A stretch of 64,000 nucleotides of DNA from Patescibacteria group bacterium (GTDB lineage: Bacteria > Patescibacteriota > Patescibacteriia > Magasanikbacterales > GWA2-37-8), in the NCBI GenBank assembly GCA_004321885.1, contig SCQK01000004.1:1-64000 (forward strand), read 5' to 3'. This document shows, piece after piece, positions 19,947-20,825 of this stretch. Position numbers and translations under genes: made by a program. The notes beneath the pieces are model-generated. The model saw only the letters and a list, made by a program, of their open reading frames with translations. It was not told the DNA's origin and searched no databases. Every line of letters starts with the position of its first letter. Positions within the stretch are counted from its first letter, which is position 1.

Positions 19947-20232
19947 TGTTCCACCGAGCAATAGTATATCACAAACGCAAAACGGAGCATATCAAAAGAG
20001 CTCCCTTACGGGAGCTCCGGGGTTCTGTAGACGGTATTCTACAACTAACCTTGCCATGTTAAAAACACTATAACATATCCACAAAAATTGTCAATATTTT
20101 ATCCACAAGCTAAACTATTGACTGGGGGTTGACATTTATGTATACTTATGATAAAGTTTTTTGCTCTTTGAGTCACGCCGGAGTGAAATCCGGAGTACGT
20201 TGTTCCACTTCAAACTCGCAGCGGAGGCAGAA

Positions 20233-20655
20233 ATGTATTTGTATCGGAACGAGAACAACGACGCGCCGCGCTACAACCCGTCGTTTCCCGTCTTCACGAA
20301 GGAGATGACGGCCGACCTGTCGCAGGCGAGCGCCACGATGCTCGCCGCGTACTTCAACGACGTCGCGAGCCGGGACGGCGGTGAGAGCTTCGTGTACGAC
20401 CTCGCCGAGCGGCTGGCGGCCGACATGCCGCTCGCGACGCTCCTCGCCGCGGCCCACCTCTGCCGGCTCTCGTCGGCCGAGTTCATCTCGCACATCCTCT
20501 GCGCGTGCGGGAAGAACGGCCGCGCCCTGGAGTGCGCGCGAGCAGTGGCCGAGGCCTCGCTCGCGGTGTTCCGCGAGCACAGCGAAAAACGCCGCGCGCG
20601 GCGGCTGGCTGTGGCGTGCTACACGCACCGGCTCTACCGCGCGGCCCGAGCCTGA
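20233..20655 (+). CDS. hypothetical protein of foreign (high-GC) origin
   Basis: 140 aa. Strong GC3 bias (third positions almost all G/C) in a 68% GC block, versus ~48% GC in the flanks. GGAGG RBS 7 nt upstream. Host-like TTGACA-N17-TATGAT promoter at 20128..20156. Other overlapping ORFs in this block are GC-frame artefacts. Confidence 0.55.
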   Translation: MYLYRNENNDAPRYNPSFPVFTKEMTADLSQASATMLAAYFNDVASRDGGESFVYDLAERLAADMPLATLLAAAHLCRLSSAEFISHILCACGKNGRALECARAVAEASLAVFREHSEKRRARRLAVACYTHRLYRAARA

Positions 20656-20825
20656 CGCTCTTTCCCTCTCCCCGCTCTTTCCCGCCATATTCTGCTTCGC
20701 CACATCGGCGGCGCAGACCAACCTACGAGCCCCGAGTCACTGACCCGGGCGCTTCTGTTTTAGAGGGATCCTTCCCCCCGACTGAGTCGGGGGTCAGGAT
20801 GACATGGTCGCTGCAGGCGACCATG

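What the first reader, a model, noticed from the sequence alone, without database searches (positions are those of the whole stretch)
20128..20770. 0.6 kb 68% GC foreign gene with a host-type promoter next to an aberrant tRNA-Ala-like gene
There is a sharp compositional step at ~20160 and ~20700. The 140-codon gene has almost exclusively G/C third positions, unlike every other gene here. It has a GGAGG RBS and a host-like TTGACA-N17-TATGAT promoter. The block ends at a host-type ccccccgactgagtcggggg hairpin before queA. Juxtaposition with a tRNA-like gene suggests an old integration remnant. A chimeric contig is the alternative.
Basis: partly seen in the sequence, partly recalled or inferred. 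Interest (0 to 1): 0.6.

Follow-up and report, generated by a model that had tools for sequence, protein, structure and literature searches.

The report
Foreign orphan gene beside tRNA-like pair
A small gene with the base composition of a much GC-richer organism really is embedded in this Magasanikbacteria (Patescibacteria) genome and has no detectable relative anywhere, while the odd "tRNA" next to it is not an integration scar but one half of a conserved, apparently undescribed pair of small RNAs.

Summary
Window 20233-20655(+) is an intact 140-codon ORF with GC1/2/3 of 0.65/0.51/0.93. Forty-five other ORFs in the window have GC3 0.59 +/- 0.07, maximum 0.69. The ORF has a GGAGG site, sigma-70-type promoters and a genome-typical hairpin at its 3' end. 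The window is a Candidatus Magasanikbacteria MAG.

The block sits in a variable gap between convergent rplK and queA. It is absent from 39 related loci. An independent per-run assembly reproduces the left junction at 100% identity. The protein has no true homologue among about 15 billion proteins, in any profile library or among solved folds. It is predicted to be a helical bundle.

Best reading: a recent, un-ameliorated capture of an orphan gene from a high-GC donor. Its function is unknown.

The "integration remnant at a tRNA" idea is not supported. There is no integrase and no att-type repeat, and the block lies on the 5' side of the RNA gene.

The tRNA-like gene (19873-19946, minus strand) has an 8-bp acceptor stem and 4-bp T stem, G3:U70, A73 and an encoded CCA. 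It belongs to a family found in 13 other distinct metagenome loci. Each copy is preceded by its own promoter-to-terminator unit for a roughly 68-nt RNA that is antisense to its D and anticodon arms and covaries with them. That RNA pair is the most novel thing here.

The parts
19841..19870 (.). Bidirectional terminator hairpin (AAAAAAGAC...GTCTTTTTT). It ends both the DUF5667 gene (+) and the tRNA-like RNA (-).
   Evidence: Inverted repeat I12; sequence. Every family member has a hairpin plus T-run just after the CCA.
19873..19946 (-). 74-nt alanine-type tRNA-like RNA. It has an 8-bp acceptor stem with G3:U70, A73 and an encoded CCA, and a 5-bp D stem with a small loop. Its 7-layer anticodon-like stem has a C.U mismatch and an 8-nt loop, AUUGCCAU. 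The variable region is 3 nt and the T stem 4 bp with loop UUCAACU.
   Evidence: Fold -31.1 kcal/mol, z -2.6. Consensus structure over 14 members has 9 pairs with compensatory changes. Rfam gives only weak hits: tmRNA 15.4 bits, Tymo TLS 22.5 bits. ARAGORN finds nothing.
19951..19973 (-). Extended -10 box TGTGATATACT (19963-19973) and the leader motif GGUGG (19951-19955, complementary to the 3' CCACC) in front of the tRNA-like RNA.
   Evidence: GGTGG lies 9-11 nt upstream in 14 of 14 family members, and a -10-like box (TG-extended in about 7 of 14) lies 6-8 nt before it in most.
19993..20062 (-). Companion RNA of about 68 nt. Its 5' segment (20061->20038) is antisense to the D and anticodon arms of the tRNA-like RNA. 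A hairpin and the motif AGAAC follow, then an intrinsic terminator at 20018->19993.
   Evidence: Inverted repeat I1; terminator scan; alignment. Cognate duplex is -41.7 kcal/mol, while non-cognate pairs average -25.1. The sense strand pairs better than the opposite strand in 14 of 14 loci. Paired fraction is 0.80 for cognate partners and 0.64 for deranged partners.
20067..20094 (-). Promoter of the companion RNA: TTGACA-N16-TATAGT with an upstream TG.
   Evidence: 11 of 12 consensus matches. A perfect TTGACA at the equivalent position in 14 of 14 family members.
20099..20157 (+). Divergent promoter region of the high-GC ORF. It holds TTATCCACA (20099-20107), TTGACT-N17-TATACT (20118-20146) and TTGACA-N17-TAAAGT (20129-20157).
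   Evidence: TTATCCACA-like motifs are enriched, 27 against 11 expected. The other two perfect copies lie just upstream of gene starts at 3904 and 13376.
20223..20227 (+). Shine-Dalgarno GGAGG, 5 nt before the ATG.
20233..20655 (+). 140-codon orphan ORF of high-GC origin. It is predicted to be a soluble seven-helix bundle with an acidic body and an arginine-rich C-terminal helix.
20656..20767 (+). GC-rich (0.61) non-coding 3' flank of the ORF, part of the foreign-looking block.
   Evidence: No codon periodicity in any frame.
20768..20828 (.). Two host hairpins between the block and the queA stop codon. The first is ATCCTTCCCCCCGACT/AGTCGGGGGTCAGGAT, containing the repeated core CCCCGACTGAGTCGGGG. 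The second is TGACATGGTCGC/GCGACCATGTCA.
   Evidence: Inverted repeats I3 and I8. The core hairpin occurs at 10 sites in the window.

Best explanation
A cassette of about 0.6 kb carrying one complete gene from an organism of about 68-72% GC was recently inserted into this roughly 49%-GC Magasanikbacteria chromosome.

Where it landed (shown). It sits in the gap between the convergent genes rplK (L11) and queA. That gap is short or filled with unrelated small genes in related genomes, so it behaves as a slot for accessory DNA. In this genome the slot also holds an ECF sigma factor, a DUF5667 protein and a two-gene RNA module. The cassette lies head-to-head with the promoter of that module.

The gene (shown). 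It has a sigma-70-type promoter in AT-rich DNA, a GGAGG site and an intact frame. Its G/C-ending codons are tolerable for this host.

Expression and product (inferred). I think it is probably transcribed and translated. The product would be a 140-residue cytoplasmic helical-bundle protein with a basic C-terminal helix. Such a protein most likely acts by binding another macromolecule rather than by catalysis. Its function is not assignable, because it has no detectable relative.

How the DNA got in (inferred). The likeliest route is DNA uptake followed by illegitimate or homology-facilitated recombination, not a tRNA-targeting integrase. A plausible donor is a high-GC organism with the same gene grammar: AT-rich promoters, GGAGG-N5-ATG and GC3-rich coding regions. 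One such genome (L112/L133) even carries the same RNA module with a divergent upstream gene.
For: Composition and frame.

Codon choice unlike the host: Leu CTC is 10 of 15 codons against a host share of 0.11, and Thr ACG is 5 of 5 against 0.28. A CAI-like value is nevertheless within the host range, z = -0.5.

Synteny: gyrB-nusG-rplK facing queA-mltG is kept in 20 or more related loci. The rplK/queA gap is 56-884 bp there, with unrelated contents. It is 2390 bp here, and no relative has the ORF.

Independent assembly: L132 is 100% identical to window 17421-20728.

No integrase or transposase in the scanned ORFs (at least 100 aa) between 5.3 and 34.3 kb.

Orphan status.

Fold.

Donor-type precedent: L112, L119 and L133 have genes with GC3 0.77-0.88, intergenic GC 0.37-0.45, the same RNA module, and a divergent gene with GGAGG-N5-ATG.
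Against: - No donor sequence was found, so transfer is inferred from composition and phyletic absence alone.
- Only one genome of this species exists in the databases; the next queA is 66% identical. Presence or absence within the population could not be tested.
- The right junction is supported only by the original assembly. The Logan contig stops at 20728.
- Expression is inferred from motifs only.
- A single-sequence AlphaFold model (pLDDT 72) is weak ground for any functional statement.
- The window's RNA module is most similar to those of low-GC loci (0.80 to L120 and L130, 0.60 to L112). There is therefore no evidence that module and ORF arrived together.
Confidence: 0.6

Rival explanations
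1. Silent relic. The block is a piece of foreign DNA taken up and fixed by chance. The ORF is intact only because GC-rich DNA has few stop codons and the event is recent. It is not expressed or has no function in this host.
For: The block has four long ORFs in different frames on both strands, as GC-rich DNA does. There is no homologue, so no evidence of selection. Only one genome carries it.
Against: The frame with the coding periodicity is the one that has an ATG preceded by GGAGG at 5 nt and two promoters with N17 spacing. It is a complete gene from start to stop, not a fragment.
Confidence: 0.22
2. Assembly chimera. Reads of a co-occurring high-GC organism were wrongly joined inside the Magasanikbacteria contig.
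For: The right junction abuts a repeated hairpin element. The independent Logan contig ends at 20728, 40 nt before that hairpin. No read data are available here.
Against: An internal 0.6-kb insert needs two false joins. Both flanks are syntenic host DNA. The left junction is reproduced at 100% identity by a different assembler working on a single run. The repeated core is only 17-20 nt long.
Confidence: 0.06
3. Remnant of an integrase-mediated island that had targeted the tRNA-like gene.
For: It lies next to a tRNA-like gene. A partial inverted copy of that gene's 5' half lies at 20020-20062.
Against: That partial copy is the conserved companion RNA gene, present in all 14 family members with its own promoter and terminator. 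There is no integrase and no direct repeat of the tRNA 3' end. The block is on the 5' side. The composition shows no amelioration.
Confidence: 0.04
4. Native gene whose high GC3 reflects extreme codon bias or a local GC-biased process, not transfer.
For: Host-preferred codons are mostly G/C-ending, and the ORF's CAI-like value is normal.
Against: Ribosomal protein genes here have GC3 of only 0.64-0.65, and the probable EF-G gene (57047-59047, identified only by similarity to an EF-G-like C-terminus) has 0.61. The ORF prefers CTC, ACG, TCG and CGG, which are not the host's preferred synonyms. GC1, GC2 and the non-coding 3' flank are also raised. The ORF is absent from all relatives.
Confidence: 0.04

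Closest known systems
Compositionally atypical ('alien') ORFan genes acquired by horizontal transfer
   Same: A sharp GC and GC3 deviation, synonymous-codon choice unlike resident genes, absence from relatives, and location in a variable inter-gene slot.
   Different: No donor or homologue is detectable even with an exhaustive HMMER scan of 1.84 billion cluster representatives. There is no mobile-element machinery nearby. The recipient is a reduced-genome Patescibacterium.
(8/4) allo-tRNAs (Mukai et al. 2017, Nucleic Acids Res 45:2776, PMC5389517)
   Same: For the neighbouring RNA: an 8-bp acceptor stem plus a 4-bp T stem, a long D stem with a small loop, and a lengthened anticodon stem. Some allo-tRNAs carry G3:U70 and are charged by AlaRS. 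Their anticodons are very diverse with UAU predominant, and many family members here have UAU at the centre of the loop. Some allo-tRNAs are thought not to be used in translation.
   Different: There is no long variable arm (3-4 nt), the discriminator is A73, and the loop has 8 nt. The setting is patescibacterial-type rather than Acidobacteria, Clostridia or Proteobacteria. A conserved cognate antisense RNA gene lies immediately upstream, which that paper does not mention.
tRNA-like domain of tmRNA (SsrA)
   Same: GGGG... 5' end, G3:U70 alanine identity, T-loop GGUUCAACUCC, encoded CCA, and no standard anticodon. The Rfam tmRNA model aligns its two ends to the RNA.
   Different: It is only 74 nt, with no pseudoknots and no tag reading frame. 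The companion RNA has no conserved ORF. The score is 15.4 bits against a gathering score of 47.
Antisense RNA pairs that start with loop-loop contacts (ColE1 RNA I/RNA II, type I toxin-antitoxin RNAs)
   Same: Two separately promoted and terminated small RNAs have about 30 nt of cognate-specific complementarity centred on a hairpin loop.
   Different: The target is a tRNA-like RNA, not an mRNA or a replication primer. The two genes are tandem on the same strand, so they are trans-encoded partners formed by an inverted partial duplication. There is no plasmid or toxin ORF context.
REP-type repeated extragenic palindromes
   Same: The hairpin that ends the block (CCCCGACTNAGTCGGGG) recurs at 10 sites in 64 kb, mostly just after genes.
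   Different: Three copies lie inside the RNase P RNA gene. Five are embedded in a longer palindromic element (GGCTCCACAG...ACTATGGAGCC).

Membership tests
Horizontally acquired gene | Base and codon composition deviates from resident genes | tested here: met
   GC3 is 0.93 against 0.59, sd 0.07, maximum 0.69. Leu CTC is 10 of 15 against a host share of 0.11, and Thr ACG is 5 of 5 against 0.28.
Horizontally acquired gene | Absent from the syntenic position in related genomes | tested here: met
   None of 39 Magasanikbacteria-type queA loci has it. The rplK/queA gap is 56-884 bp there, with other contents.
Horizontally acquired gene | A homologue identifiable in a donor lineage | tested here: not met
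   Only the gene itself was found. The FG-GAP and TPR repeat hits are compositional sums of short matches. Nothing was found in phages, plasmids or IMG/VR.
Horizontally acquired gene | Physical linkage to host DNA independent of the original assembly | tested here: inconclusive
   The left junction is confirmed by Logan contig L132 at 100% over 17421-20728. The right junction is not covered, and the queA look-ups failed.
Integrase-mediated island in a tRNA/tmRNA gene | Integrase gene in or next to the island | tested here: not met
   Pfam scan of 20 of the ORFs of at least 100 aa between 5.3 and 34.3 kb found none.
Integrase-mediated island in a tRNA/tmRNA gene | Island abuts the 3' part of the RNA gene, and a direct repeat of that part marks the far end | tested here: not met
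   The block lies 287 bp upstream of the 5' end. No second copy of the 3' end exists.
Canonical tRNA-Ala | Recognised by tRNA finders; 7/5 acceptor/T stems, standard D arm, 7-nt anticodon loop | tested here: not met
   ARAGORN finds nothing. There is no Rfam tRNA hit at gathering score. The stems are 8/4, the D loop is small and the loop has 8 nt.
Canonical tRNA-Ala | AlaRS identity set: G3:U70, A73, 3' CCA | tested here: met
   Read directly from the sequence and fold. Charging itself is not testable here.
tmRNA | tRNA-like domain plus an mRNA-like domain with a tag ORF and pseudoknots | tested here: not met
   74 nt only. The Rfam tmRNA model scores 15.4 bits against a gathering score of 47, with the whole middle of the model deleted. 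The companion RNA has no conserved ORF across 14 loci.
(8/4) allo-tRNA | 12-bp acceptor branch split 8 + 4 | tested here: met
   RNAalifold consensus over 14 sequences pairs columns 1-8 with 65-72 and 50-53 with 61-64. These stems are invariant because of how the family was retrieved.
(8/4) allo-tRNA | Long D stem with tetraloop and lengthened anticodon stem | tested here: met
   The D stem is 5 bp with a 3-5 nt loop, with compensatory changes. The anticodon-like stem has 6-7 layers.
(8/4) allo-tRNA | Long variable arm (SerRS-type) | tested here: not met
   The variable region is 3-4 nt in all 14.
Antisense RNA pair | Cognate-specific complementarity maintained through sequence change | tested here: met
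   Duplex energy is -42.8 +/- 3.9 kcal/mol for cognate pairs and -25.1 +/- 6.6 for non-cognate pairs. The cognate partner ranks first in 11 of 14 and second in 3. The sense strand pairs better in 14 of 14, with 42 G.U pairs against 20. Paired fraction is 0.80 against 0.64 +/- 0.017 for deranged partners, with 0 of 1000 derangements reaching it.
Antisense RNA pair | Both RNAs are transcribed as separate units | not testable with these tools
   Only motifs are available. TTGACA followed 16-17 nt later by a -10-like hexamer, and GGTGG in front of the tRNA-like RNA, occur in 14 of 14 loci; a hairpin followed by a T-run, and a -10-like box, occur in most.
TPR / helical-repeat proteins | Profile match to a repeat family | tested here: inconclusive

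The most novel reading that the evidence does not exclude
The 'aberrant tRNA-Ala' and the DNA between it and the foreign gene form a previously undescribed, conserved two-RNA system found in patescibacterial-type metagenome contigs. One partner is an alanine-identity, 8/4-type tRNA-like RNA whose anticodon-like loop differs from lineage to lineage. The other is a separately transcribed cognate antisense RNA that can sequester the D and anticodon arms of the first. The pair could be a controlled non-canonical or missense tRNA, or an alanyl-RNA used outside translation. Because the module is highly conserved, it may also have served as the homology anchor through which the neighbouring high-GC gene was captured.
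Probability: 0.45. Interest if true: 0.75.

Novelty: new variant of a known kind. Interest (0 to 1): 0.5.

Why it matters
Taken alone, the high-GC ORF is an ordinary kind of thing: an orphan gene gained by horizontal transfer. It is still a clean, recent example in a reduced-genome, probably host-dependent Patescibacterium. If the donor could be found in the same sample, it might point to the organism this bacterium lives with or takes DNA from.

The larger value lies next door. The unclassifiable 'tRNA' is a member of a conserved RNA family that tRNA finders and Rfam 15 do not recognise, and it comes with a covarying antisense partner. If that pair is real and functional, it adds a new type of regulated tRNA-like RNA. 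It would bear on how non-canonical tRNAs are kept harmless or put to use. It would also give annotators a model for a recurrent unannotated gene pair in Patescibacteria genomes.

Tried and rejected
1. Homology for the ORF. Pfam, PHROGs, PADLOC, NCBIfam, PDB sequences, phage and plasmid tblastn, and IMG/VR gave nothing significant (best: phrog_31762, E 0.06). The exhaustive phmmer run gave nine non-self hits. They are FG-GAP beta-propeller repeats (motif AGSAYVYDL against GESFVYDL) and TPR_12 repeats, scored by summing 4-10 short stretches. The FG-GAP hits contradict the all-helical prediction, so I treat all nine as not homologous.

3. The antisense 182-aa ORF (20173-20721, minus strand). It has no family match and the wrong periodicity, with GC highest at codon position 1.

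4. A donor gene fragment in the 3' flank. There is no coding periodicity in any frame.

5. Target-site duplication. GAGTCAC occurs at 20170 and 20735, but about 0.6 such 7-mer pairs are expected by chance between the two junction zones, and there are no terminal inverted repeats. Rejected.

6. tmRNA, including a two-piece form. There is no tag ORF conserved in the companion RNA, and the permuted gene order is absent.

7. Right-junction test through queA. Look-ups with three alternative start codons found nothing. The genome's queA is on record only from NCBI.

8. Taxonomy of the high-GC module-bearing contig L112. The homologue search and the ENA contig L133 gave no named relatives.

9. Co-transfer of module and ORF. 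The window's tRNA-like RNA is closest to those of low-GC loci, so there is no support.

10. Replication origin. TTATCCACA boxes are present, but GC skew stays negative across the window apart from a local stretch that follows gene orientation.
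Full report
**What the window is.** The only database match of the ORF product is NCBI TAN34020.1, 'hypothetical protein EPN28_00730 [Patescibacteria group bacterium]', on an 86.7-kb contig. The best relatives of the adjacent queA are Candidatus Magasanikbacteria MAGs at 48-64% identity. No closer relative exists among 5.8 billion protein clusters; the next hit is 66% identical.

Around the finding lie housekeeping genes:
- gyrB with an intein, nusG and rplK (L11)
- an ECF sigma factor and a DUF5667 protein
- then, on the other strand, queA and mltG/yceG
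- further on, tRNA-Ile(UAU), rluD, gmk, rplS and uvrA

**The observation.**
- GC in 200-nt windows is 0.70-0.74 from 20300 to 20700 and 0.40-0.50 on either side.
- The top six 400-nt windows of the whole 64 kb are all here; the window mean is 0.494, sd 0.056.
- The ORF at 20233-20655(+) has GC 0.65/0.51/0.93 at codon positions 1/2/3. This is the classical signature of a coding sequence that evolved under strong GC pressure, and only this frame shows it.
- Forty-five other ORFs of at least 100 aa have GC3 0.59 +/- 0.07, maximum 0.69.
- Synonymous choice also differs from the host. Leu CTC is 10 of 15 against a host share of 0.11, Thr ACG is 5 of 5 against 0.28, and TCG and CGG are favoured.
- Because the host also prefers G/C-ending codons, a CAI-like index is unremarkable, z = -0.5.
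- The 112-nt 3' flank is GC-rich (0.61) without codon periodicity.
- GGAGG lies 5 nt before the ATG.
Two overlapping N17 sites exist: TTGACT-N17-TATACT and TTGACA-N17-TAAAGT. Five promoter-like sites are found against 0.7 expected.
- The closing hairpin core CCCCGACTNAGTCGGGG occurs at 10 sites in the window against 0.06 expected, so it is a host element.

**Is the block real or an assembly artefact?** Related genomes keep the order gyrB-nusG-rplK facing queA-mltG, so both flanks of the block are host DNA in native order. An internal chimera would need two false joins. A contig from the Logan per-run assembly of SRR8426592 (L132, 3308 bp) is 100% identical to window 17421-20728. It runs from nusG through the sigma factor, the DUF5667 gene, the tRNA-like gene and the promoter, then through the whole ORF and 73 nt beyond it. 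The left junction is therefore reproduced independently. The contig stops 40 nt before the hairpin, so the right junction rests on the original assembly only. Attempts to reach it through queA failed.

**Where the block sits.** In 22 related loci the gap between the stop codons of rplK and queA is 56-884 bp. When it is long it holds unrelated small ORFs. One example is a roughly 165-aa family read in the queA direction in L006, L010, L011, L017 and L021. Here the gap is 2390 bp. It holds the sigma factor, the DUF5667 gene, the RNA module and the high-GC ORF. None of these was found in the 39 related loci. This is a variable slot in an otherwise conserved neighbourhood. No integrase or transposase domain occurs in the ORFs of at least 100 aa that were scanned between 5.3 and 34.3 kb.

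**What the ORF encodes.**
- There is no significant family match in Pfam, PHROGs, PADLOC or NCBIfam; the best is one PHROG hit of unknown function at E 0.06.
- There is no relative among PDB sequences, in phage or plasmid records or in IMG/VR.
- The exhaustive HMMER scan of 1.84 billion representatives found only the protein itself plus repeat proteins that score by adding up short stretches. FG-GAP propellers are incompatible with a helical protein. TPR_12 proteins are at best a faint hint of helical repeats.
- AlphaFold from the single sequence gives seven helices, pLDDT 72 and pTM 0.64.
- Read from the sequence: there is no signal peptide or membrane segment, residues 1-110 are acidic, and residues 113-140 form an arginine-rich helix.

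I infer a small cytoplasmic binding protein. That inference is weak.

**The 'aberrant tRNA-Ala-like gene'.** On the minus strand, 19946->19873 reads GGGGCGAG-C-GCAGACGGUCUGC-AGCUACCAUUGCCAUGUUAGCU-UUU-GGGGUUCAACUCCCC-CUCGCUCC-ACCA. ARAGORN and Rfam at gathering score miss it. At relaxed thresholds only the two ends of the tmRNA model (15.4 bits) and a viral tRNA-like element (22.5 bits) align.

A scan of JGI metagenome contigs with its 3' end returned 51 loci. Seventeen of them, 13 distinct, have the same 72-75-nt RNA. The consensus fold has these features:
- an 8-bp acceptor stem with G3:U70
- a 5-bp D stem with a small loop
- a 6-7-layer anticodon-like stem with a conserved C.U mismatch and an 8-nt loop
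- a 3-4-nt variable region
- a 4-bp T stem
- nine pairs in the two variable arms with compensatory changes

The acceptor and T arms are invariant by ascertainment, because they were the search pattern.

The 8/4 branch, long D stem and long anticodon stem recall the allo-tRNAs of Mukai et al. (PMC5389517). Some of those carry G3:U70, and UAU is their commonest anticodon. Most members here have CUUAUCA(A) loops, while the window has AUUGCCAU. The long variable arm that defines most allo-tRNAs is missing.

**The companion RNA.** In all 14 loci a perfect TTGACA, followed 16-17 nt later by a -10-like hexamer, lies 129-173 nt upstream of the tRNA-like RNA. It is followed by a segment that is the reverse complement of the D arm, the 5' strand of the anticodon-like arm and its loop. 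In most loci there follow a hairpin, (C/A)GAAC, a hairpin followed by a T-run and a second -10-like box (TG-extended in about half). GGUGG, complementary to the 3' CCACC, lies 9-11 nt before the mature 5' end in all 14. In the window these features are at 20094-20067 (promoter), 20062-19993 (RNA), 19973-19963 (-10 box) and 19955-19951 (GGUGG).

The complementarity follows the lineage-specific sequence. For example:
- CUUAUCA pairs with UGAUAAG
- CUUACCA pairs with UGGUAAG
- GUUGUCA pairs with UGACAAC
- the window's CAUUGCCAUG pairs with CAUGGCAAGG

The numbers support this:
- Cognate duplexes average -42.8 +/- 3.9 kcal/mol, against -25.1 +/- 6.6 for non-cognate pairs.
- Pairing is better on the proposed transcribed strand than on the opposite strand in 14 of 14 loci, with 42 G.U pairs against 20. 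This argues for RNA-level rather than purely DNA-level conservation.
- The paired fraction is 0.80 for cognate partners against 0.64 +/- 0.017 for deranged partners, and 0 of 1000 derangements reach it.

The 'partial inverted copy' at 20020-20062 is therefore a gene for an antisense partner, not an att scar. Neighbouring genes differ between loci: a probable EF-G gene, uvrA, tRNA-Leu, tRNA-Arg and gyrB. That fits a free-standing RNA module. One syntenic relative, L087, has it between gyrB and nusG.

No Rfam family covers the module. The held literature has no paper combining 'tRNA-like' and 'Patescibacteria'.

What the pair does is unknown. The options I consider are:
- an antisense RNA that holds a potentially mis-decoding or otherwise harmful alanyl-tRNA-like RNA in check
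- a two-piece RNA that uses an alanylated acceptor/T minihelix
- mutual RNase III processing

None of these was testable here.

**Origin of the ORF.** No donor was found. One member locus of the RNA family (L112 = L119; longer ENA contig L133) comes from a genome whose genes have GC3 0.77-0.88 and whose intergenic DNA is 0.37-0.45 GC. There the RNA module is again head-to-head with a divergent gene that has an AT-rich promoter, a mid-GC leader and GGAGG-N5-ATG. The window's cassette has exactly this layout.

A donor of that kind would explain why a 'foreign' gene comes with a 'host-type' promoter and ribosome-binding site. A conserved RNA module next to it would also offer a homology anchor for recombination. 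This is inference. The window's own module resembles low-GC members most closely, and the taxonomy of L112 could not be resolved.

**Verdict.** The compositional anomaly and the gene are real, and the block is very probably a genuine, recent insertion of an orphan gene. That is an ordinary class of event with an unknown product. The integration-remnant interpretation fails its defining tests. The unexpected result is that the adjacent 'aberrant tRNA' is half of a conserved, covarying pair of small RNAs that standard tools and Rfam do not recognise.

Noticed in passing
window 19873-20094 (-); L081, L083/L086, L087, L090/L109, L094, L097, L100/L103, L112/L119, L117, L120, L128, L130, L131: A conserved module with the order promoter, roughly 68-nt antisense RNA, terminator, -10 box, GGUGG leader, 74-nt alanine-type 8/4 tRNA-like RNA, terminator. 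Complementarity is cognate-specific. ARAGORN calls nothing at 15 of the 17 loci and an undetermined tRNA with a 4-nt anticodon at L094 and L117; Rfam 15 has no match.
   Followed up: yes
L082, L085, L092, L093, L114, L123, L127 (61 nt); L089, L108, L125 (116 nt); L084, L111 and relatives (about 126 nt); L102 (57 nt): Other short GGGGCGAG...CUCGCUCCACCA RNAs have an alanine-type acceptor and T arm but no anticodon arm, or a different insert. Several sit among densely repeated TTGACA/TATAAT promoters that look phage-like. ARAGORN detected none of them, and the four loci tested (L084, L088, L089, L092) had no Rfam match at gathering score.
   Followed up: partly
window 1774, 7756, 20776, 25939, 26359, 36379, 36472, 38060, 38190, 38373: The hairpin CCCCGACTNAGTCGGGG recurs 10 times. 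Five copies lie inside a longer palindromic element (GGCTCCACAG...ACTATGGAGCC) after genes. Three lie inside the RNase P RNA gene (37950-38408), which spans 459 nt for a 367-position model.
   Followed up: partly
window 20075-20107, 3904, 13376; upstream of the first promoter in L090, L094, L112: The DnaA-box-like motif TTATCCACA (27 near matches against 11 expected) sits just upstream of, or inside, sigma-70-type promoters. It may be a promoter-associated protein-binding site in these bacteria.
   Followed up: partly
window 13587-17117: gyrB carries an intein. Pfam Intein_splicing matches residues 511-936, between the GyrB and Toprim domains.
   Followed up: no
window 20826-22070 (-): QueA has an insertion of roughly 35 residues (around LRGRAMLDTRLSLRMERSGMKQSLAVTNGIASSSRVLGTPHNDSTG) relative to the 360-370-aa relatives. 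Several other Magasanikbacteria QueA proteins are also 400-458 aa long.
   Followed up: no
L112 1-7737, L133: A contig from a Rifle metagenome assembly (ANAN16-1) has GC3-rich genes (0.77-0.88), strongly AT-rich intergenic regions, cysteine-rich secreted repeat proteins (Dicty_CTDC-like), a HEPN/HepT pair, and the same tRNA-like/antisense module. Its taxonomy is unresolved.
   Followed up: partly
window 61251-61314 (+) and 10158-10814 (-): A DUF3800-II RNA motif (Rfam RF02961, 67 bits) and a DUF3800 protein gene are both present, but about 50 kb apart.
   Followed up: no
window 18469-19815: The ECF sigma factor and DUF5667 protein pair also lies in the variable rplK/queA gap. It was not found in any of the 39 related loci, so it is probably accessory as well, although its composition is host-like.
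   Followed up: partly
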